Of a stretch of 64,000 nt of DNA, positions 1-47,173 are shown in pieces. The notes under the pieces are model-generated. The model did no database searches and was not told the origin of the DNA. It saw only the letters and a list, made by a program, of their open reading frames with translations. The translations under genes and the position numbers were made by a program. This DNA comes from a virus: positions 1 through 64,000 of IMG/VR virus record IMGVR_UViG_3300020419_001178; one strand, 5' to 3'. Every line of letters starts with the position of its first letter. Within the stretch, counting starts at the first letter, position 1.

Positions 1-789
1 GCTGACATCACAGGTGAAATAGGCTTTGATGAAAATGCTCAGGTCGTCGACGATGTACTTCACGGCGATGATCCAGAATATTTCGATCCGCAAGAAGCAA
101 CAACAGAGGCTGATATGCAACGTGGTTTGGGAAGTTTAGATAAATTTAGAGAATTATATAGAAAAGGTATTGGTTCAGATGATGATGAAGTAGTTTTACG
201 CGAATTAATAGAAGAAATTAATGATGATGCTTTACAAGATGATTTTCCAAAACTTAAATCTTTTATAAGTGCATCAGAGTATGACGACTCCGATATAGTG
301 GTAGCAAAAGATGTACCTGGAAATAGTGCTGATGAAAAAATTATGTCACTTATAAAAGCAATTGGTGATGATTCATGGGTAGAAGGTTTTGCTCAAAGGT
401 TAACAAAAGATTTTAGCATGAGTGATAACGAAGAACTTGATAGAATTAAAGAACTTGCTGGAGCAAGTATTGACGAAACCTACGACGGTAATGGCTTTGA
501 TGAAGCATATGGTGACATGTGGTATAACGAAGATGAAGACCTAGACGAAGCTGAGTATCAAGGACGTAAAGTTAAACTTGGTAAACCTATGCGAGGAGAT
601 GTCAAAAAATTTAAAGTTTATGTAAAAGACCCAAAAACAAAGAATGTTAAAAAAGTAAACTTTGGTGACCCTGATATGAAAATTAAAAAATCAAATCCAG
701 CACGTAGAAGAAGTTTTCGTGCTAGACACAACTGTGACAATCCAGGACCTAGAACGAAGGCACGTTATTGGTCATGTAGGAAATGGTAA
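1..789 (+). CDS. 5'-truncated modular phage protein (putative internal head protein) with C-terminal basic Cys/His/Trp module seen in marine T4-like phages
   Basis: Frame 1 is open from base 1, so the true start lies upstream. An acidic N-part is followed by the module EAEYQGRKVKLGKP...KKVNFG...RRRSFRARHNC...ARYWSCRKW after LDE. Confidence 0.75.
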   Translation, partial: ADITGEIGFDENAQVVDDVLHGDDPEYFDPQEATTEADMQRGLGSLDKFRELYRKGIGSDDDEVVLRELIEEINDDALQDDFPKLKSFISASEYDDSDIVVAKDVPGNSADEKIMSLIKAIGDDSWVEGFAQRLTKDFSMSDNEELDRIKELAGASIDETYDGNGFDEAYGDMWYNEDEDLDEAEYQGRKVKLGKPMRGDVKKFKVYVKDPKTKNVKKVNFGDPDMKIKKSNPARRRSFRARHNCDNPGPRTKARYWSCRKW

Positions 790-1143
790 ATGAGAATAGA
801 CGAAATACATAATCCGATAGAAGATAAATTGCCATTTGATGTTGTAGATGATGTACATTTCCATCTATTAAATGATGACATGTTTTATAGAAAATATTAT
901 CTTCCTTGTATGGAAAAAATAAGAGCGGAAAAAAATGAAAAAGTGATTCAAGGTCATATGGATCCAATGATCCATAAAGGAATCAATCATTACGTGATCA
1001 AATATAATATTAACAAAACACCTACAGATTTAATGACTCCCGAAGATGTGAAGTCATTGAAGGACAGAGTTTTAGATCACGAAAAAAATCCTCCAAGGGA
1101 GATATCAAGTGCACCTGAGACAATTATTCGAAGCTCAAATTAA
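790..1143 (+). CDS. hypothetical phage protein
   Basis: 117-aa ORF abutting the previous stop (TAAATG); N-terminus MRIDEI. Confidence 0.65.
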   Translation: MRIDEIHNPIEDKLPFDVVDDVHFHLLNDDMFYRKYYLPCMEKIRAEKNEKVIQGHMDPMIHKGINHYVIKYNINKTPTDLMTPEDVKSLKDRVLDHEKNPPREISSAPETIIRSSN

Positions 1144-2053
1144 GACAGCAGTAATTGGTTATGGTAGGATGAATCCTCCTACTATAGGACATGCGGTTTT
1201 AGTCAATGCTATAAATGCAAAAGCAAAACAATATGATGGTGATCCAATGTTGTTTTTAAGCATGACGCAATCTCCTTTTTTGACACCAAAAGGTAAAACA
1301 AACAAACATTTTAAAACAGCAAATATTAAAAATCCATTAGATTGGAAAACAAAACTTGGATATGTTAATAAGTTTTTTGATATTCCTGTTAGCACAGATC
1401 CAAGCCTTAACACCATTATGAGTGTTATGAAATACTTAGAAAACAAAGGCTATGAAAAAGTAGTGCTTGTTTGTGGATCTGATAGAGTCAAAGAATTTGA
1501 AACACAAATATTACCTTACAACAACACACCAGATAAATCAGGAAATATTGCTTACAATATAAAAGAAGTTACTGTTGAACAAGGTGGATTTAGAGACGAA
1601 GAAGCAACCGATGCTAGTGGTATGAGTGCAAGTAAAATGCGTGAAGCGGCCGCACAAGGCGACTTTGAAAGTTTTAAACAAGGTGTTCCAGATCAAAGTG
1701 TAGCACAAAGAATGTTTGATGATGTACGCCGTGGACTTGGCTTCGAACATCAAGACGAAAGTTTAGACGAATACGAAGTAAAGCAACAAAAACCAAAGAT
1801 TGAAGTTTTAAATAATATTGCCGCAAGGAAAGATGGAACAGCTTTTCCTTTAAGTTGGAATGCTGGCAAAGGTGAAATTAAAGTAGGCGGAAAAATGTAC
1901 GTTGACCCTATAACTGCTAACAAGTTTGTGAATTTCTTTGATACAAATAAAGACAAACAAGATGCTATGACACAGGCATTGCGAAGTGCAACTACTACAG
2001 CTAAACTATTTGATGTATTAGGGTTTGATTATACTCTACGAATGGACAAGTAA
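1109..2053 (+). CDS. cytidyltransferase-like (HIGH-superfamily) nucleotidyltransferase with C-terminal extra module
   Basis: GRMNPPTIGH (HxGH-type) motif, VCGSDR and MSASKMR. GTG start preceded by GGGAG. Confidence 0.8.
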   Translation: MHLRQLFEAQIKTAVIGYGRMNPPTIGHAVLVNAINAKAKQYDGDPMLFLSMTQSPFLTPKGKTNKHFKTANIKNPLDWKTKLGYVNKFFDIPVSTDPSLNTIMSVMKYLENKGYEKVVLVCGSDRVKEFETQILPYNNTPDKSGNIAYNIKEVTVEQGGFRDEEATDASGMSASKMREAAAQGDFESFKQGVPDQSVAQRMFDDVRRGLGFEHQDESLDEYEVKQQKPKIEVLNNIAARKDGTAFPLSWNAGKGEIKVGGKMYVDPITANKFVNFFDTNKDKQDAMTQALRSATTTAKLFDVLGFDYTLRMDK

Positions 2054-2265
2054 TGGATATTAAAACTCTTCAGAAACTTGCGGGTATAAATGAATTCAAA
2101 GGATATGAACCAGTCAGTTTAGAAAACCTTAGTCATACAGCAAACGCCCTAAAACAAAAAGAAAAGAAACTTGGTGTAAAGCCTGGTGATCCAGATTGGT
2201 TTAAACTATGGTTTACATTACCATATATGACAGGGCCTGCTCAGTTTAGAGGTAGAAAAAAGTGA
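2053..2265 (+). CDS. small hypothetical phage protein
   Basis: 70-aa ORF coupled to neighbours on both sides; LQKLAGINE N-terminal motif. Confidence 0.7.
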   Translation: MDIKTLQKLAGINEFKGYEPVSLENLSHTANALKQKEKKLGVKPGDPDWFKLWFTLPYMTGPAQFRGRKK

Positions 2266-5200
2266 AATTTGGTCATATAAAAAGTATTGAAAATAAAGTT
2301 CCTAAGCAGGGTAGTTTTAAACACTATCTTAGAAACGAAGAAGCCGCAGGCGTTGGTATTGTAACAAAACAAAACGCAACAGCTGACGTTCCTGTTGGTG
2401 GCGAATACATGAATGTAAAGAAACTTGGCTTAGGTAAAGGCAAGCCAAAAAAGCATCCAAAAAAAGTCCGTGGTTCTAAAACCAATGTGCTATTCAACTT
2501 GGGTATGGCCGAATCAATTGATGAAGTTACAGCCAAAGAACTAGGTAGTGAATCAGAAATATACGTTGATATGGACGGTGTTTTAGCAGACTTCTTTGGT
2601 GCTTGGAAAACATTGGTTGGTACAGACTGGCGAGAAATAAAAGACTTAGATAGTGCTTTACAAAAAATTAGGGACAAGGATGATTTTTGGTTAAACATTC
2701 CTATAACAAAAAACGCTATGAACTTACTTGGTTTAATTAAAGAATTAAAAGGCAAGTATAATATTTTAAGTGCTCCTTTACCAAACGATCCTAATTCAGA
2801 ACCACACAAACGAGAATGGATTAAAAAGAATCTATCTGCTTTTCCTCCTAGCAAAGTTATTATTACATCTAACAAAGCAGTACATGCCACACAACCAGAC
2901 GGTACACCAAACATACTGATTGATGATTTTGGAAAAAATGTAGAAAAATGGGAAGCGGCAGGCGGTGTTGGATTTAAACACAAGGATCACAAGTTTGAAA
3001 GGACTGTAAAAAATTTAAAAGCACATATGAATAACCCTGTAGAAGAAGCAGAGATGAGTAAAAGCTCTATTAAAAGTATACACAAGACAGCTGACAAAAT
3101 TAAAGATAAGCCCAAGGCTAAAAAGTCTATAGGAAACTGGGCAAAAGAAAGAGGAATGGATCCTGAAGGAGCAATTTACGCTATTGCTACAAATATGAAA
3201 AAGCGTAAACAAGGTAAGAAGATTACTGGCTTAGGTAAAGAATCATATAGTAGAGACGAGCTTCCGCAAATCGGAAAAAAACATTTAAAGAATATACCAC
3301 ACAACATGGAAACTATTGACGTAGAAAATTTAGTTCCAATACAAAAAGAAAGATTAAAAGAAAATCATACAGATCAGTTACTAAAAATATTGGAAGGAAG
3401 ATTTAATCCTATAGTAGTAGACTGCTACAATAGAATAGTAAACGGTCATCACAGATATGACATAGTAAAAATGTTAAAAATGGAAAGCATTACAGTTGCT
3501 AAACTTCCATTCACATTAGAATTTTTACTAGAAATAACTAGAAGAGACTTCTTAACAAAAGCAGGAAAAGTTGGAGCAGGACTAGGAGCGGCCGCATTGT
3601 ATTCTGCTTTACCTACGCCAGTAAAAGCAATGACTAAAGATTCAAAACCTAAAATTATTATGCACACGAGCATTGGTCGCGAGTTTGATTTATCTGACCG
3701 TGAAGATCCTGCAAAAGCAATTCTAGATCTGTATGCAAAAATAGAAAAAATATATGCTGATAGAGGAGAAACAATCCCTCAAGTTTGGGTTACACTAGAC
3801 GGCAAACAAGTTTGGGCACCTGCTGGTAGTATTCCTAATGCTAATAAAACTCTTTGGACTAAGGACAAAGCTAAAAAGTCGAATGATAGAGAAGACAAAA
3901 TTAACAAAGCGGCCCGAGACGCATGGGATAATGGAGAGAGATTAAGTACGGAATACAAAATGCATTTGATTAGATTTCGACATAGGTATAAGAAAAGCAC
4001 ACAAGAAAGCGTTGAAGAAGGCAATCTCATAGCAAATCCACAACGATCCGTTTTGGTTAGAAAAAAAGACGGATATGATCATTATAAAATATCAACCAAC
4101 ATGGCAAATATTAAAAACGTATCGCCAGAGGTTGCTAGAAGAAATAAGCCTGATATAATGATACAATTTTATGGTGGAGAAAAAGAAAAAAAATACATGA
4201 TGAAGAATCTTAAAAGATTAGGTTATGATGTACAAGACGCTGACGGTTATCGAGATACACATTTTGACGAGAACATAGAAGGATCTTACATGCTTAGAGT
4301 ACGTGAGAACTTTGCTGATGGTAAGAAAAAAGGTAAAAGCAGACCCGGTCGTGTAAAAAAATCTGGTGCTAGTTGTAAAGGATCAGTCACTAGTTTGAGA
4401 GCAAAAGCTAAAAAAGCATCAGGAGAACGTGCTAAGATGTATCACTGGTGTGCTAACATGAAGGGTGGTAAAAAGAAAACAGAATCTTTATATACTGAAC
4501 AAGAATTTTTACAAATCTTAAATGAAAGTACTCCTCAACAATTACAAGAAGGTATAAAAGATACATTACAGAAACTTCCAAAAAATTTATTATCAAAAGT
4601 AACACCCATAATTAAAAAGATTCCAAAGACTGCAAAAAATTTAACATTAATGGCAGTACTGCTGGGCACTATGGTAAACGCTGTAGCGGCCGGAGACATG
4701 GCAAAGGTAAACACTCCGCTTGATAAACTTAATAACATGACTACAATGAGTACTACAATGGACACAGGTACTGACGTTGGGCCTGGACATACAATGCCCG
4801 ACAATATCAAGGTATTGAAAATGCCAGCACCTCCACCAGCACCAGGCGCAGATACTCCAGATGGCACAGCAGACAATGGTACAAACACACAAACAGATAA
4901 AAACGGTAACCGTACTGTATCAAGTGGAGCAGGTACATATACATTTTCACCAGATGGCAAATTATTAAAGTATGAAACTCCTAAAATAAAAGGTTATCAA
5001 CAAATACATGATCTAGTTAAAAAAACAGTTACAGTTGATGCTAATACATCTGTAACAATGGACAAAGATTATGGTAACTTATCCAAAGCAGATAGAGAAA
5101 TACTAAAAAAGAATGATCCTAATTTTGATAAAAGTACATCCGTAATAGATACAAAAGCAACTTATGACATGAGCGGTAAACTTATAAGCAAAGATCATAC

Positions 5201-5402
5201 TGGTATGAAGTCTGGAGGAATGTCTATAGGTATTGATGGAGATGGTAGTAAAAATATTAAATATAATGCTGGAGGAGGCAAAGTATATAAGGCAAGTACT
5301 GCTGATATGCCAGCCGCAAAGGATACTTTGAAGAAAATGCAGAAAGATTTTAACATAGCAAATAGCCAAACAGGCGCATCGGTTGCTAATAAGAAAGGGT
5401 AA
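2262..5402 (+). CDS. 1046-aa multi-module protein: HAD 5'(3')-deoxyribonucleotidase-like domain, ParB/Srx-like domain, internal Tat-like and Sec-like signal segments, basic modules
   Basis: IYVDMDGVLADF...ILSAP...ILIDD (HAD) and PIVVD..NRIVNGHHRY (ParB-like). Also ITRRDFLTKAG plus hydrophobic stretch plus VKA, and an ENFADGKKKGKSRPGR module. Confidence 0.8.
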   Translation: MKFGHIKSIENKVPKQGSFKHYLRNEEAAGVGIVTKQNATADVPVGGEYMNVKKLGLGKGKPKKHPKKVRGSKTNVLFNLGMAESIDEVTAKELGSESEIYVDMDGVLADFFGAWKTLVGTDWREIKDLDSALQKIRDKDDFWLNIPITKNAMNLLGLIKELKGKYNILSAPLPNDPNSEPHKREWIKKNLSAFPPSKVIITSNKAVHATQPDGTPNILIDDFGKNVEKWEAAGGVGFKHKDHKFERTVKNLKAHMNNPVEEAEMSKSSIKSIHKTADKIKDKPKAKKSIGNWAKERGMDPEGAIYAIATNMKKRKQGKKITGLGKESYSRDELPQIGKKHLKNIPHNMETIDVENLVPIQKERLKENHTDQLLKILEGRFNPIVVDCYNRIVNGHHRYDIVKMLKMESITVAKLPFTLEFLLEITRRDFLTKAGKVGAGLGAAALYSALPTPVKAMTKDSKPKIIMHTSIGREFDLSDREDPAKAILDLYAKIEKIYADRGETIPQVWVTLDGKQVWAPAGSIPNANKTLWTKDKAKKSNDREDKINKAARDAWDNGERLSTEYKMHLIRFRHRYKKSTQESVEEGNLIANPQRSVLVRKKDGYDHYKISTNMANIKNVSPEVARRNKPDIMIQFYGGEKEKKYMMKNLKRLGYDVQDADGYRDTHFDENIEGSYMLRVRENFADGKKKGKSRPGRVKKSGASCKGSVTSLRAKAKKASGERAKMYHWCANMKGGKKKTESLYTEQEFLQILNESTPQQLQEGIKDTLQKLPKNLLSKVTPIIKKIPKTAKNLTLMAVLLGTMVNAVAAGDMAKVNTPLDKLNNMTTMSTTMDTGTDVGPGHTMPDNIKVLKMPAPPPAPGADTPDGTADNGTNTQTDKNGNRTVSSGAGTYTFSPDGKLLKYETPKIKGYQQIHDLVKKTVTVDANTSVTMDKDYGNLSKADREILKKNDPNFDKSTSVIDTKATYDMSGKLISKDHTGMKSGGMSIGIDGDGSKNIKYNAGGGKVYKASTADMPAAKDTLKKMQKDFNIANSQTGASVANKKG

Positions 5403-5405
5403 ATA
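5398..5405 (+). promoter_or_regulatory. T4 late-type promoter box (GGTAAATA)
   Basis: Resembles TATAAATA, contains the TAA stop of the upstream gene, and lies 5 nt before ATG 5411. Confidence 0.5.
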
Positions 5406-5410
5406 GTATT

Positions 5411-5629
5411 ATGCGTATAAGAGAACTAATAACTGAATATACTACTGCTACAACAACACAGGCAGGTAATATTGCATGTTTACCTAATCCAGTAATGGCG
5501 CACGGCCATAGACCTAAGGGAAAAAACGGATTACCGCAGGCTCCTCAAAAGAAAAATAAAGATGGCACAGCTAAAAACGCACTTGACATCAGTAACAATT
5601 TGATGGGTGGCAAAGCCATAAAGAGATAA
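5411..5629 (+). CDS. small hypothetical protein (putative head-packaged)
   Basis: MRIRELITE N-terminus; 72 aa, basic. Confidence 0.7.
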   Translation: MRIRELITEYTTATTTQAGNIACLPNPVMAHGHRPKGKNGLPQAPQKKNKDGTAKNALDISNNLMGGKAIKR

Positions 5630-5632
5630 ATA
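5625..5632 (+). promoter_or_regulatory. T4 late-type promoter box (GATAAATA)
   Basis: Overlaps the stop of the upstream ORF; followed by AAGGA RBS and ATG 5650. Confidence 0.55.
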
Positions 5633-5649
5633 CTTAAAAGGACACGACA

Positions 5650-6669
5650 ATGAGAGAAAAGGACTTAAAAGAAGATTTAGCAACATTAGCTTACAAAGCC
5701 GAAGCTGATCATGAAGTTCAGATGGCTAGAGCTGATCTATACAAACTTGCCAAATATTCTATTAAATTACACGAAATGATGAAGGGTGTAACTGAGCAAG
5801 AAGGCTTAGAAGGTTGGGTCCAATCTAAAATTACTAAAGCGGCAGACTACATAGGGTCTGTATATCATTATCTAGATTATGAAACAAAATTTGATGAAAT
5901 GACCGAAGCTAAAAAGAAAATGGTCAAAGATCCTAAAACGGGTAAAATGGTTCCTAACTATGCTATAGACGGCAAAGGTAAAGACGACCTAACGAAGAAA
6001 AAAGTAAGTGAAAACAAAATTATGGATCCAGAAACTAAAAAAATGGTTCCAGAAAAAGATTACGTCATGAAATATGTAATGGCAAAACATCCGCAAGAAA
6101 CAAAAAAATTATTACAAAGTCAGGATCTAATGGACATATATGATACTGATTTATATATGGCTTTATTTGATTACTTTTCAGAAGATATGCCATATGGTAC
6201 ACAAAAAGGCAGAGATGGTGATCCTGTACAATATATGCAAGACGAATTAGATATGATGGGTATGTTTGATGGACGTGAAGGACCATTTGACATTTACAAC
6301 AAGACGCCTACTATGAAAGTATCACAGCCTGATAAGGATTTAAACACACCTGCTTTTCAAAGAATGAAAGCGGGAGATCCTCGTTACACAGACGATACAA
6401 ACAAAGAACAATATATTGAATCACTAAAAACAAAACTTGAAGATAATTTAAAGTCAAAAAAAAAATCTGAAGGTTCATTAGTACTAGAAGACTTTGTAGG
6501 AAAGTCTATTACTGAGGAACAATTTGACGAAGCGGCAGGGAAAAAAGATGCTTGTTATCACAAAGTTAAATCCAGATACAAAGTTTGGCCAAGTGCTTAT
6601 GCGTCTGGTGCTCTAGTTCAGTGCCGTAAGAAAGGCGCAAAAAACTGGGGTAGTAAAAGTGCATCTTAG
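5650..6669 (+). CDS. modular hypothetical protein (putative internal head protein)
   Basis: Modules DHEVQMARADL...LEGWVQSKITKAADY and KDACYHKVKSRYKVWPSAYASGALVQCRK, separated by E-ending linkers. Confidence 0.75.
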   Translation: MREKDLKEDLATLAYKAEADHEVQMARADLYKLAKYSIKLHEMMKGVTEQEGLEGWVQSKITKAADYIGSVYHYLDYETKFDEMTEAKKKMVKDPKTGKMVPNYAIDGKGKDDLTKKKVSENKIMDPETKKMVPEKDYVMKYVMAKHPQETKKLLQSQDLMDIYDTDLYMALFDYFSEDMPYGTQKGRDGDPVQYMQDELDMMGMFDGREGPFDIYNKTPTMKVSQPDKDLNTPAFQRMKAGDPRYTDDTNKEQYIESLKTKLEDNLKSKKKSEGSLVLEDFVGKSITEEQFDEAAGKKDACYHKVKSRYKVWPSAYASGALVQCRKKGAKNWGSKSAS

Positions 6670-7591
6670 AGAACTCATAAAAATAGTAGAACAGGCGGAT
6701 ACTCCTAGTTACGACAACTGGGATCATGACGAAGCTATATCATATTCACAGTATTTAGAAAAACATTTTGGTTCACCAGATGAATTTACTAATGAACAAG
6801 CTGTTTGGCATAACATAGACGGGTTCAAGAGAGTAGTTTGCCGAGATGAATATATTTTACATAGTTCACCTGCTCCACATTATGACTTTGTATATTCTTA
6901 CATTGACTTAGAAGTTGACGAAGATCTTTCAGACGAGTTAGCAAAATGTTCAGGTAGCATATTAATCGATCATTTGAAAAATGAAGTTGGTGCTAGATGC
7001 GGATCTCTTACAGCAAACGCTGTCACACTTAATTTTTGTTTAGATGTAGTATCAGGTAGAGTAGATCCTGTAAAAGATCAATACGAAGCACGTATTCTTG
7101 CTATGAAAGACATGTTTAAAAAGGGTGAAACATACAATTTAGATTGGTGGCCAGACACAGCAGGCGATGCTGATCCAGAAAATGAATACTATAAGGAACA
7201 TTACGATCTAACAACAGAAGGCACACGTTGTTGGAAAGGTTATAAGAAACATGGCATGAAGACAATGTTTGGTAAACGTGTACCTGACTGTAGAAAAAAT
7301 GAACATGTTGATTATTGTGTGAACTGTGGAGATCTTGTTTTTTCAGAAGACATGGACTTACATGAAGATCTAAAAAAATGGTTCAAACAAAAATGGGTTC
7401 GCTTTGGTCCAGACGGAAAAGTTCGTGGATCTTGCGGAGGAAAAAGTGAAGGTGAAGGAAAGCCAAAGTGTTTACCAGCCAGCAAGGCTTATGCTATGGG
7501 AAAGAAGAAAAGAAAAACTTCAGCATCTCGTAAGCGAAGAAAAGATCCCAATGCAGATAGACGTGGTAAGGCAAAAAACGTAAAAACTTAG
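6659..7591 (+). CDS. modular hypothetical protein (putative internal head protein)
   Basis: GTG start MHLRELIKIVE; modules EGTRCWKGY...VPDC and EDLKKWFKQKWV...KPKCLP. Confidence 0.75.
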   Translation: MHLRELIKIVEQADTPSYDNWDHDEAISYSQYLEKHFGSPDEFTNEQAVWHNIDGFKRVVCRDEYILHSSPAPHYDFVYSYIDLEVDEDLSDELAKCSGSILIDHLKNEVGARCGSLTANAVTLNFCLDVVSGRVDPVKDQYEARILAMKDMFKKGETYNLDWWPDTAGDADPENEYYKEHYDLTTEGTRCWKGYKKHGMKTMFGKRVPDCRKNEHVDYCVNCGDLVFSEDMDLHEDLKKWFKQKWVRFGPDGKVRGSCGGKSEGEGKPKCLPASKAYAMGKKKRKTSASRKRRKDPNADRRGKAKNVKT

Positions 7592-38082: not shown

Positions 38083-39583
38083 AAATATTTAATTTTCTTT
38101 GTTTATATTCTTCTATTCTATCTCTGTTTGTTTGACTATACTTCCTTTTTATATACATCTCGTCTAAACTTAAACTTAAAAGTTCATCAGTATCTTCAAA
38201 TTTTCCTATATATTCCGTGATATCAAAGTTAGAAATTTTTTGCTTGAAAAAATAATCTTTGTGATACATTTCTCCAAACTCTGAAGCCTCTTTAAAGTTG
38301 GTTATATCACTTTCCCAAATTAACGCCCTATTATCAAGTTTGTTATTAAGCCTACCCATAGGATCTGCTTTAAACGGAACGTTGTATCCTTTTTTTATTG
38401 ACCAATCAATTATCTCTTTATTTTTAGTCGGAAAGTATCCAAATTTTTGTGCGTCTACACTAAAGTCACTGTGTGTCTTTGTATCTGGGTCGTCACTAAT
38501 ATGTAAGCCCCAATAAAAGAAACTATCCCAATTTTTATCTAACCAGTCTAAGCTATCATACCAAGACTTAACAGGCTCATTAGGCAATCCAGCTATCATT
38601 CCAATTGTGCCTCTATATAAACCTAACCTAGCATTAAACTCATCTCTTATCCATAGTAAACCTTCTTTTATCTTATCGGGATGCATTCCTTTTCCTATAG
38701 CTTTTGCCGCTTCTGGATGAAATGTTTCTATTCCATAAAAATGCCCCCAACATCTTGCTCTCACTAATAATGCGATTTGTTGTGGTCTTGAAATCACTAA
38801 ATCTAATCTAATAAAACAAGTAAAGTTAGGCTCAAAGGGTAAACGTTCTACAGCTAAAGCTAGTTTTTCTATCTTACTATCTCTATCATTAAACGTATCG
38901 TCACTAATAATATAGTTGGTTGTTCCCCATTTCTCATAATTGTGCATCATTTCATTATACAAATCATCCTGTGTCCTACTATAGTCTTCTTTCACCCCTA
39001 AGAAGGCGTAATTACAATACTTACATTTGAATCTACATCCTCTACTTGTTTCTAATGTAAGAGCTTCATGGGGTTCTATGAAATCATTTGGATGGTACAC
39101 ACAATCATATTTGTCTATGTCTAATCCTTTATAATGATGATTAGCATCTATCAATAGACTATTAGGTGCCCAATCAGGATATTTTCCTATAGGTTTAGGT
39201 CCATTGTTAAACATCCATTCTAACACAGGAGTAATACTATGTTCGCTATAACCAAATACCATACAGTCTGCTCCATAATCCATTTGGTAAGGTTTAGGAC
39301 CTCCCATTAAGATTTTGGCCTTAGGGTATTCTTTTTTTAAAAAAGTAATTTTATCGTTGACCATTTCGTCCATCATCCATAAATTACCAAAGGCAAGTAA
39401 ATCAACTTCGTAAGGCAACGAGTCAATAAATTGTTTCACTTCTTTGTTTGACCATCTAGACAGCCAATCTATTACTTCGACAGTCCATCCTTGAGAACGC
39501 ATCATATCGGCAATTTTATACGCACCCATGGTACGTCTAATTATATCGTCACCACTTTCATTAAAAATTACTGCGTAATTCAT
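38075..39583 (-). CDS. B12-binding-type (class B-like) radical SAM enzyme
   Basis: N-terminal Rossmann-like domain with MGGP; ETSRGCRFKCKYC, SDDTFND, GIET, IAGLP.E. Confidence 0.85.
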   Translation of the reverse strand: MNYAVIFNESGDDIIRRTMGAYKIADMMRSQGWTVEVIDWLSRWSNKEVKQFIDSLPYEVDLLAFGNLWMMDEMVNDKITFLKKEYPKAKILMGGPKPYQMDYGADCMVFGYSEHSITPVLEWMFNNGPKPIGKYPDWAPNSLLIDANHHYKGLDIDKYDCVYHPNDFIEPHEALTLETSRGCRFKCKYCNYAFLGVKEDYSRTQDDLYNEMMHNYEKWGTTNYIISDDTFNDRDSKIEKLALAVERLPFEPNFTCFIRLDLVISRPQQIALLVRARCWGHFYGIETFHPEAAKAIGKGMHPDKIKEGLLWIRDEFNARLGLYRGTIGMIAGLPNEPVKSWYDSLDWLDKNWDSFFYWGLHISDDPDTKTHSDFSVDAQKFGYFPTKNKEIIDWSIKKGYNVPFKADPMGRLNNKLDNRALIWESDITNFKEASEFGEMYHKDYFFKQKISNFDITEYIGKFEDTDELLSLSLDEMYIKRKYSQTNRDRIEEYKQRKLNIFK

Positions 39584-40203
39584 TTTACCTTTGCTACCAT
39601 ATTCCAACATGGGTAAGCCCAATAATCGCTGAAAGATGGTAATGTTTCCTTTTCTAATAATACAATATTAAAATTTTTAAAAGTATTTAATAAATCTTGT
39701 TCTTCTAATTGCGGAGGAGTATATTCAACACTTCCTAATTTATTTTCTAATCTACCTGATTGATTACAGTAAACTCCGTTTTTCATTAAAACCTTTTGTA
39801 CTATATTTGCGTACTGTTCTCTATATTCGTGTGGTACAAAATGATATAATCCAAAATCTATTATTACATCATATTTGTTCTCTGTGTTTAATTCAAATAA
39901 ATCAATACATTGAAATACACAATCACTTTGTTTTTTCTTAGCATTATCTATTGCTTTGTCAGAAATATCAATTCCATGTACTTCATATCCCATTTTGCTT
40001 AAAGGTATGCTATTACGACCTTCTCCGCAACCTAAATCTAAAATTTTACTTTCCTTAGGAAAATAACTTATGAACTTTTCCAACACACTTGCTGGTGCTT
40101 TCCCCCATGCTGGATTTCCTGCTTCATAAATAGTGTTCCAAAAATTAGGTAACTTAATCTCATAGTCTTCGAGATGCTTGTTAACAGGATATTGTGTTGA
40201 CAT
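39580..40203 (-). CDS. class I SAM-dependent methyltransferase
   Basis: ILDLGCGEGRN, GIDIS, YDVIID.G.YH. Confidence 0.9.
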   Translation of the reverse strand: MSTQYPVNKHLEDYEIKLPNFWNTIYEAGNPAWGKAPASVLEKFISYFPKESKILDLGCGEGRNSIPLSKMGYEVHGIDISDKAIDNAKKKQSDCVFQCIDLFELNTENKYDVIIDFGLYHFVPHEYREQYANIVQKVLMKNGVYCNQSGRLENKLGSVEYTPPQLEEQDLLNTFKNFNIVLLEKETLPSFSDYWAYPCWNMVAKVK

Positions 40204-40772
40204 CAGGTAAGGTCCGCAACTGCCTCTGCGTATGGCGCTTCATATGCCCAACTAAAGATTACCCTCATTGAATCAGTAGTGTTTATTATTTGATGTGGCA
40301 TTTTAGTATTAATTAGAGTGGGCATTACAGTGACATGTTCACAGGCAAGTTCCGCATTTTCAACATAAGTTAACCATTCGTTAGATTGCCATATACCTTT
40401 TTTATCGCCAAATTGATCATAAATTGATTCTGCTATATCTCCGTTTTTAAAAAACTTTGTAATCTTTGAGCTGTCGCAGTTGTGAACAGGTATACTTATT
40501 GCTGAACTCCTGTGTGCGTCAATGTGTATAGGCCAAGAACCTTTACTACACTTCATTAGCTTTATAAAACTTTTTAATTTAGGATATTTTGCTCGTATTC
40601 CGCTCAGATATTCGTCTGCTTCAACATCAACAACTTTTACATCTGTGTATAATGCTAATGCTTCAACATCTGATAAGCTCTTCCATTCATCGGTAAGCAT
40701 GTCATCTGCTATACCTTTCATGTAATCTAAATCTACAAATCCGGGTAGCTCTGTTAAATATGGTTCTTTCAT
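40203..40772 (-). CDS. Fe(II)/2OG-dioxygenase-like protein
   Basis: IHID..R.SAISIPV...LINT..PH...RVI. Confidence 0.65.
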   Translation of the reverse strand: MKEPYLTELPGFVDLDYMKGIADDMLTDEWKSLSDVEALALYTDVKVVDVEADEYLSGIRAKYPKLKSFIKLMKCSKGSWPIHIDAHRSSAISIPVHNCDSSKITKFFKNGDIAESIYDQFGDKKGIWQSNEWLTYVENAELACEHVTVMPTLINTKMPHQIINTTDSMRVIFSWAYEAPYAEAVADLT

Positions 40773-41296
40773 AATGTTTTACCTTTCAATTTTTTTTCAA
40801 ATATTTGGCAAACATCTTCGTACGTTTCTTCAAAGCACAACTGAAACACTATTCTTGTATCGTTGTTCTCTGTGAAGTAAACATTATGATAATGTCCCCC
40901 AGTATTTAATATTGCTCCGTACCCTTCATAATTGATACTGGCTACTTTATTTAGTGACTCGTCATAGAACCAAGTTTCACCACAATTTTCTGTTAAAGGA
41001 AAACTAATTACTGTCTGTCGGGGGATATATGTTCCTTCAAATTCATTATGTCTATTTTTATCTTTATGGATTTTACTTCCTGATTCATTTACTTTTAGTA
41101 GCTGACAAACACAATTTAATCCTGTTTTGTTGAACTTTTGTATTGTACTAGGAAATTTGAAGAAACTTATTTTGTAACTTATATCTACAAAAGCATCAGG
41201 CTTTAAAGCTATAGCTAATAATTCGTTTTTAGTCTGTTCACTAATAATGTTAGGAATAACTCTATAATACGGATCATAACTTTGTAGCATATTCAT
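40769..41296 (-). CDS. Fe(II)/2OG-dioxygenase-like protein
   Basis: IHKD...ISFPL...ILNT..HYHNV...RIVFQ. Confidence 0.65.
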   Translation of the reverse strand: MNMLQSYDPYYRVIPNIISEQTKNELLAIALKPDAFVDISYKISFFKFPSTIQKFNKTGLNCVCQLLKVNESGSKIHKDKNRHNEFEGTYIPRQTVISFPLTENCGETWFYDESLNKVASINYEGYGAILNTGGHYHNVYFTENNDTRIVFQLCFEETYEDVCQIFEKKLKGKTL

Positions 41297-42113
41297 CTTT
41301 TTTAATTTCGTATTTGCTTATAAGTAAGTCAGTGACAGATCCTGTAATCGTTGTAGGAGTCACACCGCCACTTGAACTAGTAATAAAAACCTCATCTGCT
41401 GACAAAAATAGTTCTGTAGTTATAGGCATTCTTTGAAAATTTATATCTTGTTCATTTGCTATATCCTCAACTACACTCATTGTAATACCTTTTAGAACAT
41501 TTTTGTTAGAAGTCATTATGACTTTATCTTTTACAATACCTACATTGAACCCAGGGCCTTCAGTAACTAGTCCGTCAGTATCTACTAACACAGTCGTATC
41601 AAATCCGGTTGGACAATTCATTTGACTCATTGTTAATTCTATCCAAGCCATGTTCTTATATTGTTGTCCGTAGTAATCGTCGTTTACTCTGTGTGTTTTT
41701 TTATCCAAGTATAATTTAACCATCGGTGTTGATGCTATAGGATAACTAGGTTTAATATACATGGCAAAATTTATAGGACAATTTTCTAAATCTCTTGGAT
41801 TTCCACTAGAAGGATATCCACGCCAAATTATAAACCATACAAATGCATTCTCAATAGGATTACGTTTAGCAAGTTCTTTAATTACTTCTAAAGTATCTAC
41901 ATTTGGAATAGTTAGTCCGTAACGTTTAGCACTATTCTGAAATCTTTTTAAGTGCCTTTCATAACAAAATGCTTTTCCTTTATACACAGGCATTACATCA
42001 TAAGTAGCATCACAATGGATAAAACCAAAATCTAATATGCTAGGTCCTATATCTTTTAACGGCAGGAATTCACCGTTTTTATATGCTATTAAGTCTAATA
42101 CATTATTCATCAA
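41274..42113 (-). CDS. class IV PLP aminotransferase (BCAT/D-amino-acid/(R)-amine type)
   Basis: GFIHCDATYD, HLKRF, YKN..W, EGPGFN, LKGIT, ADEVFITSS. Confidence 0.9.
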   Translation of the reverse strand: MMNNVLDLIAYKNGEFLPLKDIGPSILDFGFIHCDATYDVMPVYKGKAFCYERHLKRFQNSAKRYGLTIPNVDTLEVIKELAKRNPIENAFVWFIIWRGYPSSGNPRDLENCPINFAMYIKPSYPIASTPMVKLYLDKKTHRVNDDYYGQQYKNMAWIELTMSQMNCPTGFDTTVLVDTDGLVTEGPGFNVGIVKDKVIMTSNKNVLKGITMSVVEDIANEQDINFQRMPITTELFLSADEVFITSSSGGVTPTTITGSVTDLLISKYEIKKDEYATKL

Positions 42114-42360
42114 AATTTACCTTTTTAAGTTGCGGATCGTCAGGCAATTTTTTCTTAAGTTCCTTTAATCTATTAATTCGCCATTCTAATAATTTAAAAT
42201 CAAGAACCCAAGGAAAAATAGCGTGAATAAGACTACCGATTGTTACTCCAAGTAGAAAAAAGAATTCAGCTATGGCTAATTTAAAGTGCCACCAATACCC
42301 TGCATCTTCTCTACCTGCTTTTGCTTTTGCTTCTTGTAAGTGTTTAGGATTGTACCACAT
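42103..42360 (-). CDS. small membrane-associated hypothetical protein
   Basis: KHL...YWWHF..A...LIHAIFPW pattern. Confidence 0.65.
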   Translation of the reverse strand: MWYNPKHLQEAKAKAGREDAGYWWHFKLAIAEFFFLLGVTIGSLIHAIFPWVLDFKLLEWRINRLKELKKKLPDDPQLKKVNFDE

Positions 42361-42904
42361 AATTTCCTTTCAACAAACTTCTACGTCTATTATACTCATT
42401 TATATTTAAATGCCAAATTGTTTGCTCACAGTTATATAATTCCATATCGCAATGTTTATCAAGTATTCCTTGCCTTGCTAATAGACCCATTAATCTATGA
42501 TTGCGGGCCGCTTTACCGTTTGAATGTTCTCGGTAAATGTTTGTAGTAATATATAGCTTGTCTGTAGGACAATAATCTATAAAGCGAGGAATAAATTCTC
42601 TTTGAGTAACGCTGTTCCAATCACCCTTTCCTAATCCTTTGAAGTTACTATCATGAGGTAGTTCACAACCTCTAAATAAAATTCTCCAAGCATCTTCGCC
42701 TACTTCCGGCAACGGATGACATCCGGCTACTGCTATTATATTTCCATTTTTTAAAGCACAAAAATATTCTCCCCATTCTTTTGTTTTTTCAAATCTCATT
42801 TCTTTCAGACTACTGTTATTAACATAGCCTAATTCTTTTGCTTTTTCACAAAAGGTTTCTAACTTAGAGATGAGATCATCAGTGATTATTTTTACTTCAA
42901 TCAT
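42344..42904 (-). CDS. hypothetical protein, possible GNAT fold
   Basis: IIAVAGCH...WRILFRG..LP pattern. Confidence 0.55.
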   Translation of the reverse strand: MIEVKIITDDLISKLETFCEKAKELGYVNNSSLKEMRFEKTKEWGEYFCALKNGNIIAVAGCHPLPEVGEDAWRILFRGCELPHDSNFKGLGKGDWNSVTQREFIPRFIDYCPTDKLYITTNIYREHSNGKAARNHRLMGLLARQGILDKHCDMELYNCEQTIWHLNINEYNRRRSLLKGNYVVQS

Positions 42905-43518
42905 AGTGGCATTAAATTTGTTACTATTTCTTCTGCTGTTTTTTTATTAAGTTCAAGATTAACAACTAACCAATAACTATCTTCATTTGTACTATTAAAT
43001 AATTGATGTACCTTTGCTGTATTTAAAAAGTACAAATGACCTAAACGCCAATTTAAAATTTTATCTTCTAGTATAAATGTACAAGGATTTTTCATTGGAC
43101 ATATTAATCTACAACTATCTAAATTAAGATGCCTAAAATCTCTATGGGTAGGAAAATATCCGCCAGGGGCTAATTTTAAAATATGTGTCCTAAAAAAATT
43201 ACCTTCAAATGGTTTTAAAAAATCTTTTATACTGTTACTTTTCGTATACGCATCTGTATACACATTAAAATCTTGCTCTTCATAATTTGTATTATTTTCT
43301 TGATTGTATTCGTGTAAACTATCTAGATCTGGTATTCCAGATAACCCGCCGTCTAAACTGGTTAGGCTTAATCCGTATCTAGCAATAGGTTTTCTAGGAT
43401 TGTATTTGACATAGTCAAAGTTTTCTTCTGTCCATTTTATGTATGCTCTGCTATCAAAATTGAAACCTAGCCTAATAAAATCACCATATTGTGTTATTGT
43501 TTGATACAAGCCAGACAA
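42901..43518 (-). CDS. Asp/Asn beta-hydroxylase-like Fe(II)/2OG dioxygenase
   Basis: LAPGGYFPTHRD...FLNTAKVH.LFN; likely TTG start at 43518 after GGAGG. Confidence 0.7.
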   Translation of the reverse strand: MSGLYQTITQYGDFIRLGFNFDSRAYIKWTEENFDYVKYNPRKPIARYGLSLTSLDGGLSGIPDLDSLHEYNQENNTNYEEQDFNVYTDAYTKSNSIKDFLKPFEGNFFRTHILKLAPGGYFPTHRDFRHLNLDSCRLICPMKNPCTFILEDKILNWRLGHLYFLNTAKVHQLFNSTNEDSYWLVVNLELNKKTAEEIVTNLMPL

Positions 43519-43540
43519 GATATCCTCCAAATTCTATTCA

Positions 43541-43554
43541 TATAAATATTTATT
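43541..43554. promoter_or_regulatory. overlapping divergent late-type promoters
   Basis: TATAAATA (+, 43541-43548) and AATAAATA (-, 43547-43554). Confidence 0.65.
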
Positions 43555-43580
43555 GAACGTATGTAAAGGTTTTAGTCAAT

Positions 43581-44459
43581 ATGAATAGACAAACTCAGCT
43601 AGAAAATCAAATAAAATTTATGAATTATGACCGTAGTAAAAACATGGACGTAATTCGTAACATGCAAAAATGTCAAAGGAATTGGGACTACTCTAAAAAA
43701 ATATGGGACGAAATAGTCGAATATTTACTATGGATTGCAGAAAATAGTCCTTCCAAACAATGGGAAGCCTATTACGATGTGTATTGGAGTGCTGACAGGA
43801 AAGTAGTACAAGAAATATCCAGGTATACCTGGGGGTGTACACATAGCAGAAATCCTCCTAGCACATGGAGAAATGCTCAAGCTAATGCTAATATGTATAT
43901 GTTATTTGTTGCCAAAGAGCCTGAAACGCAAGAGAATTGTAACCCCGACGGAACTTTAAAATCTAACACTAAAAATTCTAGATGGGAAAATGCTTATGTC
44001 AGTATAGGTATAGCAATGGGGCTTGTTATGCATGCCGCTCATAAATTAGATATGGTTACAGGTTGTAATAAGAGTCACGGTGATATAAATGGCGACATGT
44101 TCTGGGAAAAAAGGCTTGGAATCTTGGATGATGTAAAAGCAGGCAGGAAAAAGATTGCTTATGGCATAGGCATAGGATATCCACAAGCAGACAAAGAAAG
44201 ATGGCAAACAGATGAGACAGAATTAGCAATAGGTGCTGGCAACGGAGATACATTAACAACTTTAAATGAAAAAGATCCTAATTGGGTAGATAAACATATT
44301 GATACAGGAAAAACCGTCAGGAAAATTAAGATAGTAAACATAAAAGAAAACTCAGAAGCAGTTGACCCTTATGGCAATTTACATCCACTACCTCTTACAA
44401 GTGATATTAAAATTAACACACAAAAAATACGCAAAATTAATGTGACGGAGATTAAATGA
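43581..44459 (+). CDS. nitroreductase-like flavoprotein
   Basis: QRNWD, PSKQ, SIGIAMG....AA..L...TG, GIGYP. Confidence 0.65.
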   Translation: MNRQTQLENQIKFMNYDRSKNMDVIRNMQKCQRNWDYSKKIWDEIVEYLLWIAENSPSKQWEAYYDVYWSADRKVVQEISRYTWGCTHSRNPPSTWRNAQANANMYMLFVAKEPETQENCNPDGTLKSNTKNSRWENAYVSIGIAMGLVMHAAHKLDMVTGCNKSHGDINGDMFWEKRLGILDDVKAGRKKIAYGIGIGYPQADKERWQTDETELAIGAGNGDTLTTLNEKDPNWVDKHIDTGKTVRKIKIVNIKENSEAVDPYGNLHPLPLTSDIKINTQKIRKINVTEIK

Positions 44460-45340
44460 TAAACATAGTTGTTACAAGCAAACCTTGTGATGGTTTGTTT
44501 TACTATAGTTACGAATACAAATCAGCTTTAAAAAGTATAGGTATGCCTGTACAAGTTATAGTAATTACACATAGAAAATTTAAGGAACAAGATTATTTAG
44601 ACAGCATAAATGAAAAATATATTCATTGTGAAGATTTATTTTTCAACGATTTTAATCCTGAAGAAAATGACACAACTTTAATCATGGGTAGAAGCATGAT
44701 GACATTAGGTTATCAGGATTTCAAAGAATATACGGAATCTCAACAGGAAACTTTGAAAAAAGTTTTTAGTAAAAATCTAATAGCTGTATATTCCGAAAAT
44801 CATCCTACTAGATATCATCAAGCTATCGGATTTTTTAATCCTGCGAAAATAATAGATTTATGCGACACTGATGTGTATCCAGAAGGGCCTACAGAATTAC
44901 ATTTTGAGAAACATATTAATTTTACAATTCACAAAGATATAATAGATGATATTAAGTTTGATCATTTGTTTTTAGGAACTAACGACAAATACTATGCTAC
45001 TATAAATTCAATAATTAAAGACTATCCTGATCATGGAATTATTACATACGATGAAGATTATATAAATGAAAACAATAATAATGTTTTTGCTCCAGTCAAA
45101 AATATTATGGGAATGTTTAAAACTTATGTATATACTAAGGATACTTTTGATCCAGCACCAAGAATATTTCAAGAATGTAGATATTTTGGTAAGGAAGTAA
45201 TTTATCAAAGAGATAAAAGTATAAAAGATGGAGGTAGTGTGTATTGGGATAGAGGCTTGAAAGATCCTGATATATCTAATATAGCAACAGCAATACAGCA
45301 ATTTGCGGGTCAACGAAATGTGCCTGTAAAGAAGGGATAG
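44456..45340 (+). CDS. hypothetical protein (possible glycosyltransferase fold)
   Basis: 294 aa; FD..PR...EC.YFGK motif. Confidence 0.6.
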   Translation: MINIVVTSKPCDGLFYYSYEYKSALKSIGMPVQVIVITHRKFKEQDYLDSINEKYIHCEDLFFNDFNPEENDTTLIMGRSMMTLGYQDFKEYTESQQETLKKVFSKNLIAVYSENHPTRYHQAIGFFNPAKIIDLCDTDVYPEGPTELHFEKHINFTIHKDIIDDIKFDHLFLGTNDKYYATINSIIKDYPDHGIITYDEDYINENNNNVFAPVKNIMGMFKTYVYTKDTFDPAPRIFQECRYFGKEVIYQRDKSIKDGGSVYWDRGLKDPDISNIATAIQQFAGQRNVPVKKG

Positions 45341-45342
45341 TA

Positions 45343-46416
45343 ATGATATCATACGACGGATGGGATAGAGAGTACCAAAAAAATAGATCAGCGTACCTAG
45401 ACATATTTGAAAGTTTTATGTCGCAACTTAATTATGAGAACGCAGAAGATTTCGAAAAACAAATAGCAGAATACGTAGGTAGGAAACATGTCGTATCCGT
45501 AGCTTGTGCTACTGATGCCTTAGGCTTTTCTTTAATGAGTCACGGTATAGGTCCAGGTGACGAAGTTTTGGTAACAGACTTCAGCTGGATTTCGACATCT
45601 TCATGTATAAGTATGACCGGTGCCACTCCTGTTTTCTGTGATATAGATTTAGATTCGTATCATATGAGTTTTGAAAGTATAAAACGCATGGTAAGTCCTA
45701 AGACAAAAGCAATAGTATATACACATCTATTTGGAAACATGGTTGATGTCACTGAAATAATAGAATTTTGTACGGAGAAAAAAATATTCTTTATTGAAGA
45801 TGCCGCACAATCGTTAGGTTCTAGTTACAATAAAGTAAAAGCAGGTAGCATAGGACATTGTAGTTCCTTTAGTTTTAACACAAATAAAGTGATCGCAGGC
45901 ATAAACGGTGGTGGTGTGTTTATGACTGATAATGAAGATATAGCTAATATTGTTAGAAAACTAAGAAGACACGGAAAAGACAAGGATTTTGAAATGATTG
46001 GTTACAATTCTAGATTGTATGTTTTCAATTCTATGATTATAAAACAAAGAATGAAAAATATTGTTGAAACGCAAAAAACGAGACAAGAAATAGCCCAAAG
46101 ATATAATGATGCTTTTAAAGACTTACCTGTAATTACACAAAAGCCTAGTGGCATATTAGATCATAATTTTCACAAATATACTGTAAGATTTGAAAATAAA
46201 GAAATTAGAAAAAAAGTTAAAAAGGAACTGAGTTTATCCATACACTACGAACGTCCTTTATCAGAAAACTCTATGTATGAACATTTAAAATATAGAAAAG
46301 ACGATTGTAAAAATGCTAAATTAGTAGCAGATACTATTGTATCACTTCCAATACATGCTTGGTTAAAAGAAGAAGAAATAAATCAAATTATAGATAAAGT
46401 AAAATCAAGTTTCTAG
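45343..46416 (+). CDS. DegT/DnrJ/EryC1/StrS sugar aminotransferase
   Basis: GIGPGDEV, GATPVFCD, HLFG, IEDAAQS, FSFNTNK, GYNSRL, SLPIH. Confidence 0.92.
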   Translation: MISYDGWDREYQKNRSAYLDIFESFMSQLNYENAEDFEKQIAEYVGRKHVVSVACATDALGFSLMSHGIGPGDEVLVTDFSWISTSSCISMTGATPVFCDIDLDSYHMSFESIKRMVSPKTKAIVYTHLFGNMVDVTEIIEFCTEKKIFFIEDAAQSLGSSYNKVKAGSIGHCSSFSFNTNKVIAGINGGGVFMTDNEDIANIVRKLRRHGKDKDFEMIGYNSRLYVFNSMIIKQRMKNIVETQKTRQEIAQRYNDAFKDLPVITQKPSGILDHNFHKYTVRFENKEIRKKVKKELSLSIHYERPLSENSMYEHLKYRKDDCKNAKLVADTIVSLPIHAWLKEEEINQIIDKVKSSF

Positions 46417-47103
46417 TTTAATAAATGATAAGATATCTCTTGCGGCTACCATGTGAGATCCACGTCCTGGATGTAGGTTGTCTAACGCTATGTCAATAAA
46501 AAAAGATTTGTTTTTCAGCCTCATTAAATTTACATTATTCCAAGAATAATCTAAATCTTTGTAATTGTTTTCGCACGTCACATGATAATTTTTTATTCCG
46601 ATTCTATCTAAATGATATTTTGCCATATTCATTCTTACAATAGAATCATAAGCAGTATCTACATCTGTATGAAATTTTTCATAGTATAATAATGTATCTT
46701 CTAGGTTGGTTCCATTTGGCGCTCTTCTGCTTGTTCCTATTTTTTCAACGTCCATTGGCATAAATCTTTGAATTGCTCCGCCTCTCCAATCCTGTCTTTC
46801 TTTTTCTAAAAATACACAGTACCGATCAAAGTAACTCCACATTACTACAACTATATCACCTTTTACATATTTTGTATGTAGAATGATGTCTAATATATGT
46901 TTATTAGATGCTCCTGGCACAGCAAAATTTACACATTTTCGTCCTAAATCATCTGACACTAGTCTAGGCCAAGCGTATTTACTAGGTTTTTGTCCGTGTG
47001 ATCCTTTTTGCTTCATGGTAGGTTGTCCATTTTTGTCTACCCAACAATCAGTAAGTCCTTCACCATACGTGTTACTACAACCAAATGCTACTAATCTGTT
47101 CAT
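46405..47103 (-). CDS. SGNH-hydrolase-like phage protein
   Basis: AFGCSNTYG, G.SN, WS..DR, D.LHPG..SH. Confidence 0.65.
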   Translation of the reverse strand: MNRLVAFGCSNTYGEGLTDCWVDKNGQPTMKQKGSHGQKPSKYAWPRLVSDDLGRKCVNFAVPGASNKHILDIILHTKYVKGDIVVVMWSYFDRYCVFLEKERQDWRGGAIQRFMPMDVEKIGTSRRAPNGTNLEDTLLYYEKFHTDVDTAYDSIVRMNMAKYHLDRIGIKNYHVTCENNYKDLDYSWNNVNLMRLKNKSFFIDIALDNLHPGRGSHMVAARDILSFIKLET

Positions 47104-47108
47104 GCTTA

Positions 47109-47156
47109 TATTTACCTGCCAGGCTTTAATGTATTTTATTTTGCGAATAATAAATA
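47109..47156. promoter_or_regulatory. divergent late-type promoters
   Basis: GGTAAATA (-, 47109-47116) and AATAAATA (+, 47149-47156). Confidence 0.55.
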
Positions 47157-47173
47157 TTCAAGTAAGAGTGTAA

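What the first reader, a model, noticed from the sequence alone, without database searches (positions are those of the whole stretch)
3525..4020. Cryptic twin-arginine (Tat) signal buried mid-protein, right after an LLE cleavage-type site
Seen: ...LEFLLE|ITRRDFLTKAGKVGAGLGAAALYSALPTPVKA|MTK. This matches a Tat signal ([ST]RRxFL, hydrophobic region, VxA peptidase site) but sits about 425 residues into the 1046-aa protein. Inference: head-protease cleavage at LLE would expose it as a new N-terminus. An ejected, already folded fragment could then be exported to the periplasm by the host Tat system (e.g. superinfection exclusion or envelope remodelling), or could jam TatC. I know of no described protease-activated cryptic Tat cargo in phage heads.
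Basis: partly seen in the sequence, partly recalled or inferred. Interest (0 to 1): 0.85.

Follow-up and report, generated by a model that had tools for sequence, protein, structure and literature searches.

The report
Buried Tat signal in phage polyprotein
An uncultured marine T4-like phage carries a textbook bacterial export signal (Tat) in the middle of a long modular protein, right behind a head-protease-type cutting site; relatives keep this layout while swapping what lies on either side, which suggests (untested) that a protein injected with the DNA is then exported by the host to its periplasm.

Summary
Observation confirmed. ORF 2262-5402 (1046 aa) of a 146-kb marine T4-like phage has a Tat signal at residues 425-456, above the TIGR01409 cut-off, directly after Leu-Leu-Glu424. 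Residues 425-586 are a swappable cassette: many relatives lack it and rejoin at or within a few residues of this Glu; others keep it behind a different module or with another cargo. In scans that did not ask for the Glu, 41 of 45 internal Tat signals of viral contigs have Glu at -3 to -5 (background 19%); in a scan that did not ask for the arginines, 33 of 35 have them. Annotated cargos elsewhere are envelope-type (GH19, TonB-C, LysM/SLT). The phage encodes a gp21-type protease. In the cultured relative Atu_ph07, 13 of 13 proteins with similar Glu-ending leaders are in the published virion proteome. Packaging, cutting and export are inferred, not shown; this cargo's function is unknown, and two lineages keep it without the signal. 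Stand-alone versions need no unmasking. I found no paper on it. The scan noted the same layout before in at least 7 other genomes.

The parts
2262..5402 (+). 1046-aa modular polyprotein, probable head cargo; modules exchanged at Glu junctions
   Evidence: 192 of 347 homolog alignment ends lie within 6 aa of an [ILV]xE site (12% of positions do); ends are not independent
2262..2291 (+). 10-residue basic/hydrophobic leader ending in Glu, resembling a T4 capsid-targeting sequence; P3 is Ser, not Leu/Ile
   Evidence: sequence; role inferred by analogy with PMC9026906 and Atu_ph07
2526..3047 (+). 5'(3')-deoxyribonucleotidase-like (NT5C/HAD) module, residues 89-262
   Evidence: phrog_2643 E 2.5e-22; PF06941 24.2 bits, just under cut-off
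3246..3533 (+). ParB/Srx-like module, residues 329-424, ending in Leu-Leu-Glu
   Evidence: phrog_620 E 1.9e-6; homologs
3525..3533 (+). L-x-E site of gp21 type (predicted cut after E424)
   Evidence: motif L/I-X-E per PMC9026906; junction conserved with and without the cassette; cleavage not shown
3534..3629 (+). Tat-type signal peptide, residues 425-456: T-R-R-D-F-L, Gly/Ala/Leu h-region, Val-Lys-Ala peptidase site
   Evidence: TIGR01409 over cut-off; invariant RR, F and final Ala in alignment A2
3630..4019 (+). 130-aa basic cargo (15 kDa, pI 9.2, no Cys); core of about 65 aa, beta-beta-alpha-beta-beta; no known family; ends in a V-x-E site
4308..4478 (+). Small Cys-containing basic module (residues 683-739) that is a separate leader-bearing gene in L180
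4551..4691 (+). Second buried export-type signal (Sec-like, no RR) after the L-x-E site at residue 763
   Evidence: layout kept in 11 homologs at 60-95% identity; no predictor run
790..7591 (+). Cluster of neighbouring genes with short M-[KRH]..[LI]-x-E leaders (790, 1109, 5411, 5650, 6659)

Best explanation
The polyprotein is head cargo. Its leader brings it into the prohead (inferred). The gp21-type protease cuts at the Glu junctions and frees residues 425-586, an 18-kDa piece that now starts Ile-Thr-Arg-Arg (inferred). The piece is injected with the DNA into the next cell's cytoplasm, as T4 internal proteins are (inferred). Being ready-made and folded, it is taken by TatC, exported, and trimmed after Ala456, leaving a 15-kDa domain in the periplasm from the first minutes of infection (inferred). 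There it most likely binds an envelope protein or the cell wall to block rival phages or steady the envelope (weakest step; this cargo has no known family). Cutting also removes the acidic linker and so gives the signal its positive n-region. Shown: the signal, its conservation, its coupling to the Glu site, the modular exchange, the presence of the protease gene.
For: Signal over curated cut-off. Cassette absent in 44 of 65 homologs, several rejoined exactly at the Glu (P0022, P0023, P0025, P0026), and present in 21, behind two unrelated upstream modules and with two cargo types. Arg codons differ between relatives (AGA-AGA, CGT-AGG, CGT-AGA) and pN is below pS in the signal (e.g. 0.10 vs 0.50). 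Scan without the Glu: 41/45 internal hits have Glu at -3..-5 against 19% background, 28 of 32 cargo families. The following ten residues are 1.7% charged against 28%. Scan without the arginines: 33/35 have RR. Cargo family: all 19 distinct contexts with the signal have the Glu. Named cargos elsewhere are GH19, TonB-C/TolA, LysM+SLT, M48. Genome has Peptidase_S77, gp23 and gp20 homologs, and the capsid protein has L-x-E just before the part matching mature T4 gp23. Atu_ph07: 13/13 leader-bearing proteins are in the virion proteome against 16/37 others; 87-kDa gp53 and 86-kDa gp44 are most abundant in low-mass gel bands 9 and 10 (PMC6102473 Table S5).
Against: No experiment on this phage; host unknown, so a Tat system in it is assumed. 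Stand-alone forms (P0078, P0085, P0086) would be valid Tat substrates uncut and could be exported in the producing cell. Internal Tat signals can work uncut (FecR, Rieske). Two lineages keep the cargo without a signal (P0080/P0088; P0076/P0094/P0095). The cassette DNA looks inherited (CGT-AGA in 30 of 41), so hits are not independent. Atu_ph07 has no Tat match and its leader proteins are largely paralogues. This protein's own leader has Ser at P3.
Confidence: 0.6

Rival explanations
1. The signal is a working Tat signal but acts in the producing cell late in infection: stand-alone forms are exported directly, and the polyprotein is read as an internal (class V-like) signal or cut outside the head. 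The cargo then acts in lysis timing or exclusion. The Glu is a remnant of gene fusion at old leaders.
For: Stand-alone leader+signal genes exist, and the next gene in L180 is another of our modules with its own leader, so junctions are former leaders. Class IV/V internal signals are known. Peptidoglycan-type cargos would also suit lysis.
Against: Leaders of this form mark virion proteins in Atu_ph07. The Glu is kept at a fixed 3-5 residues in 28 unrelated cargo families. An uncut chain would have to export 590 residues of mixed modules. Class V signals are uncleaved, these keep AxA.
Confidence: 0.2
2. The freed peptide is a decoy or membrane anchor: it binds TatC or the inner membrane and blocks host export, or tethers the cargo, without productive export.
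For: A strongly stereotyped consensus would bind TatC well. The cargo is kept without the signal in two lineages.
Against: AxA-type sites are kept; cargos are many and include periplasm-acting folds; a second, non-RR export-type signal sits in the same protein.
Confidence: 0.1
3. Vestige: modules were captured from host exported proteins with their signal, which no longer works.
For: Cassette DNA is shared by descent; it is dispensable in many relatives.
Against: No convincing cellular homolog of the cargo in 1.84 billion representatives (the one repeat-protein hit looks spurious). pN below pS in the signal and RR kept across codon families. RR in 33/35 unconstrained hits.
Confidence: 0.05
4. 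An internal translation start makes an ordinary N-terminal Tat protein, so no protease is needed.
For: Some relatives have Met two residues before RR; here in-frame ATGs lie at residues 405 and 408.
Against: Only 4 of 41 internal hits have ATG at -2, and 3 of 41 have a start codon with a Shine-Dalgarno-like word within 10 codons. No such word precedes the ATGs here. It does not explain the Glu.
Confidence: 0.05

Closest known systems
T4 internal proteins IPI-III and Alt (capsid-targeting sequence, gp21 processing, injection); cleaved head proteins of phiKZ and SPN3US
   Same: Short Glu-ending leader, L/I-X-E sites, gp21-family protease, presumed delivery with the DNA (PMC9026906, PMC3012670).
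   Different: Many modules in one chain; a released piece starts with a host export signal. No such onward export is described in the papers read.
Polyvalent proteins of phages (Iyer et al. 2017, PMC5512222)
   Same: Large mosaic multidomain proteins thought to be packaged and injected; ParB-like and nucleotide-acting modules.
   Different: Those are proposed to self-process by metallopeptidase domains; the paper has no occurrence of 'signal peptide' or 'periplasm'. Here junctions are prohead-protease-type sites.
Tat substrates, class I (cleaved N-terminal signal) and classes IV/V (internal uncleaved signal: actinobacterial Rieske, FecR) (PMC13673990)
   Same: S/T-R-R-x-F-L motif, h-region, AxA site; internal position as in IV/V.
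   Different: Internal and yet cleavable, preceded by a viral protease site; would be class I only after cutting. The review names no phage substrate.
Bipartite transit peptides of thylakoid-lumen proteins (from my own knowledge, not tested)
   Same: Two addresses in series; a processing protease exposes a Tat signal.
   Different: First address is a phage head and the trip spans two cells; no homology implied.

Membership tests
Tat signal peptide (class I) | S/T-R-R-x-F-L-K / Z-R-R-x-phi-phi motif | tested here: met
   T-R-R-D-F-L-T; TIGR01409 over cut-off; RR and F invariant in relatives
Tat signal peptide (class I) | Uncharged, moderately hydrophobic h-region and AxA-like site | tested here: met
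   Residues 437-454 uncharged, Val-Lys-Ala at 454-456
Tat signal peptide (class I) | N-terminal position in the gene product | tested here: not met
   Residue 425 of 1046; N-terminal only after a predicted cut, or in stand-alone relatives
Tat signal peptide (class I) | TatC-dependent export of a folded passenger | not testable with these tools
   Needs a reporter assay
Tat class IV/V internal signal | Internal signal left uncleaved as a membrane anchor | tested here: inconclusive
   Internal, but AxA sites are kept in relatives, which points to cleavage
T4-type internal head protein | gp21-family prohead protease in the genome | tested here: met
   PF03420 E 1.7e-26 at genome 102261-102899
T4-type internal head protein | About 10-aa N-terminal leader ending in L/I-X-E | tested here: inconclusive
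   10-aa leader ends in Glu but with Ser at P3; four neighbours fit the strict pattern
T4-type internal head protein | L/I-X-E sites at the borders of released pieces | tested here: met
   L-x-E424 and V-x-E586, none between; sites match module borders
T4-type internal head protein | Present and cleaved in the virion, injected | not testable with these tools
   Uncultured; indirect support from Atu_ph07 proteome
Polyvalent proteins (Iyer 2017) | Several unrelated domains in one mosaic chain | tested here: met
Polyvalent proteins (Iyer 2017) | Hallmark domains such as MPTase or MuF | tested here: inconclusive
   None found by Pfam, NCBIfam or PHROGs; only a ParB-like module is shared

The most novel reading that the evidence does not exclude
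A widespread group of uncultured T4-like phages uses a two-address code: a leader sends a polyprotein into the head, the head protease frees pieces and exposes Tat (and Sec) signals, and the next host exports these pre-made proteins to its periplasm before any phage gene is expressed. The signal is a mobile cassette fused to dozens of unrelated cargos.
Probability: 0.55. Interest if true: 0.85.

Novelty: new variant of a known kind. Interest (0 to 1): 0.7.

Why it matters
Injected phage proteins are thought of as acting in the cytoplasm. If this reading holds, abundant aquatic phages also deliver ready-made proteins to the periplasm through the host's own translocase, a route to immediate superinfection exclusion or envelope control. 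It would add a class of Tat substrate (internal, activated by a viral protease), give a sequence rule for finding envelope-acting phage proteins among unannotated genes, and suggest a way to route T4-packaged cargo to the periplasm. It is cheap to test with reporter fusions.

Tried and rejected
Cargo function: no Pfam, NCBIfam or PHROG family, no ESM Atlas feature hit. The AlphaFold model is weak (mean pLDDT 56; core 11-60 about 70-80). 81 loci fetched by a neighbouring module held one Tat cassette: the cassette is a minority feature. Cultured phages: no Glu-preceded Tat signal in Atu_ph07, XacN1 or BF; Phosso has one ordinary N-terminal one; tblastn of a junction gave no match. SignalP/TatP were not available. 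No complex was predicted: a signal peptide with a stand-in TatC would pass by likeness. Eight literature searches found no description of this layout; the library lacks most subscription papers. The binomial P is not quoted because hits share ancestry.

Full report
Observation. The window is the first 64 kb of a 145,741-bp virus record, 35% G+C. The same protein occurs on Tara marine contigs. Its DNA polymerase is closest to Sinorhizobium phage Phosso (50%) and Agrobacterium phage Atu_ph07 (45%) among cultured phages. ORF 2262-5402 encodes 1046 aa. After Leu-Leu-Glu424 come T-R-R-D-F-L, an uncharged Gly/Ala/Leu stretch and Val-Lys-Ala456. TIGR01409 scores 17.9-19.9 bits against a cut-off of 16.7. 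It is the only such motif in the proteome; a loose version with upstream Glu is expected 0.03 times by shuffling.

The protein is a string of exchangeable modules: an NT5C-like nucleotidase, a ParB-like domain and several unknown ones. Alignment ends of homologs pile up at [ILV]xE sites: 192 of 347 within 6 residues, against 12% of positions (not independent). Of 65 homologs, 44 carry the ParB module without the cassette; in P0022, P0023, P0025 and P0026 the Glu is followed directly by the module that starts at our residue 587. Twenty-one carry a Tat cassette: some behind ParB, some behind an unrelated module ending Val-Leu-Glu-Glu, some with an unrelated cargo. Residues 425-586 are thus a unit bounded by two protease-type sites with none inside.

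The signal is kept at the protein level. The arginine pair is written AGA-AGA, CGT-AGG or CGT-AGA in relatives, and between diverged copies pN is 0.09-0.12 against pS 0.39-0.53. Variation falls where the Tat consensus allows it (consensus per PMC13673990).

Two scans of IMG/VR tested the parts separately. A pattern for the RR motif alone, blind to what lies upstream, gave 70 distinct in-frame hits; 45 are internal, and 41 of these have Glu 3-5 residues before the arginines, against 19% background, in 28 of 32 cargo families. The ten residues after the fixed pattern are 1.7% charged against 28%. A pattern for the downstream part alone gave 35 contexts, 33 with RR in place; the other two are Phe-Phe chance matches. 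The cassette DNA looks inherited, so these are repeated uses of one cassette, not independent origins. Where cargos can be named they are envelope-type: GH19, TonB/TolA C-terminal domain (3), LysM plus SLT, M48 peptidase. Most have no family.

Our cargo forms a small family seen only in this kind of phage protein. Of about 24 assessable contexts, 19 have the Tat signal, all with the Glu; five, in two lineages, lack it. Three are stand-alone 99-aa genes: a 5-residue leader ending in Glu, the signal, the cargo. In L180 the neighbouring gene is another of our modules with its own leader. The polyprotein therefore arose by fusing leader-bearing genes. The fold model is weak and matches nothing clearly.

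Packaging and cutting are inferred. The genome encodes T4-type portal, capsid protein and Peptidase_S77; the capsid protein has L-x-E at residue 41, just before the part that aligns with mature T4 gp23. T4 gp21 cuts after L/I-X-E, and a 10-residue leader suffices for packaging (PMC9026906). I matched Atu_ph07 genes 21-70 to the published virion proteome by molecular mass (PMC6102473 Table S5). All 13 proteins with an M-[KRH]..[LI]-x-E leader were detected, against 16 of 37 without (many are paralogues). The 87-kDa gp53 and 86-kDa gp44, rich in such sites, were most abundant in bands 9 and 10, below the 43-kDa capsid protein in band 6, as expected if cut. Virion protein gp65 matches a module in two related polyproteins of about 1000 aa. 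Four neighbours of our gene fit the same leader pattern; our own leader ends in Glu with Ser at P3.

Mechanism. Most likely: into the head, cut at Glu, injected, exported by Tat, trimmed (0.6). Tat suits a protein that arrives ready-made, and cutting strips the acidic linker from an n-region that should be net positive. The main rival is export in the producing cell (0.2): stand-alone forms need no unmasking and Tat can read internal signals. Decoy or anchor (0.1), vestige (0.05) and internal start (0.05) fit worse.

Novelty. Each part is known; their coupling was not found in eight literature searches, in two reviews of injected phage proteins or in a 2026 Tat review. Automated annotation does label such proteins (row 48, row 1). 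The scan has noted the same layout in at least 7 other genomes; those notes are not evidence, and I reached this reading before seeing them. What this locus adds: exact presence/absence of the cassette, stand-alone ancestors, signal-less exceptions and the Atu_ph07 link. Verdict: real, conserved, mechanism plausible and untested; new variant of a known kind; interest 0.7.

Noticed in passing
window 4551-4691: Second buried export-type signal without RR (basic stretch, hydrophobic core, Ala-Val-Ala-Ala end) after the L-x-E site at residue 763, kept in 11 homologs, before a Thr/Gly/Pro-rich domain.
   Followed up: partly
window 3840-4019: The C-terminal half of the cargo differs between close relatives with pN near pS (0.05-0.11 vs 0.03-0.14): mosaic or fast-evolving, as a host-contact surface might be.
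   Followed up: partly
L128, L130, L145: Phage TonB/TolA C-terminal domains behind Glu-preceded Tat signals; candidate periplasmic blockers of TonB- or Tol-dependent phage entry.
   Followed up: partly
L095, L167, L172: Genes that start with a 5-residue Glu-ending leader followed at once by a Tat signal; L095 carries LysM and SLT domains.
   Followed up: partly
L129, L136, L137, L143, L169: Tat-like motifs without an upstream Glu at -3..-5, some deep in long proteins of apparently other virus groups (L136 after a Tyr-Ala-Gly-Gly-Gly motif); perhaps the same trick with another protease.
   Followed up: no
P0080, P0088: The cargo follows a very basic Lys/Arg-rich stretch in place of the Tat signal.
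   Followed up: partly
L190 (Atu_ph07 39484-50592): Run of 11 virion proteins gp53-gp63 with near-identical Glu-ending leaders, an apparently unremarked capsid-targeting sequence in a cultured jumbo phage.
   Followed up: partly
L088 9456-10004: An Fe/Mn superoxide dismutase gene sits directly before the polyprotein gene in a relative.
   Followed up: no
window 1-789: The record starts inside a gene; the full product is 454 aa in L001, preceded by an AdoMet decarboxylase gene on the other strand.
   Followed up: no
L185 (Phosso 258268-258735): Cultured phage Phosso has a 155-aa hypothetical protein with an ordinary N-terminal Tat signal: a ready test case for a phage-encoded Tat substrate.
   Followed up: partly
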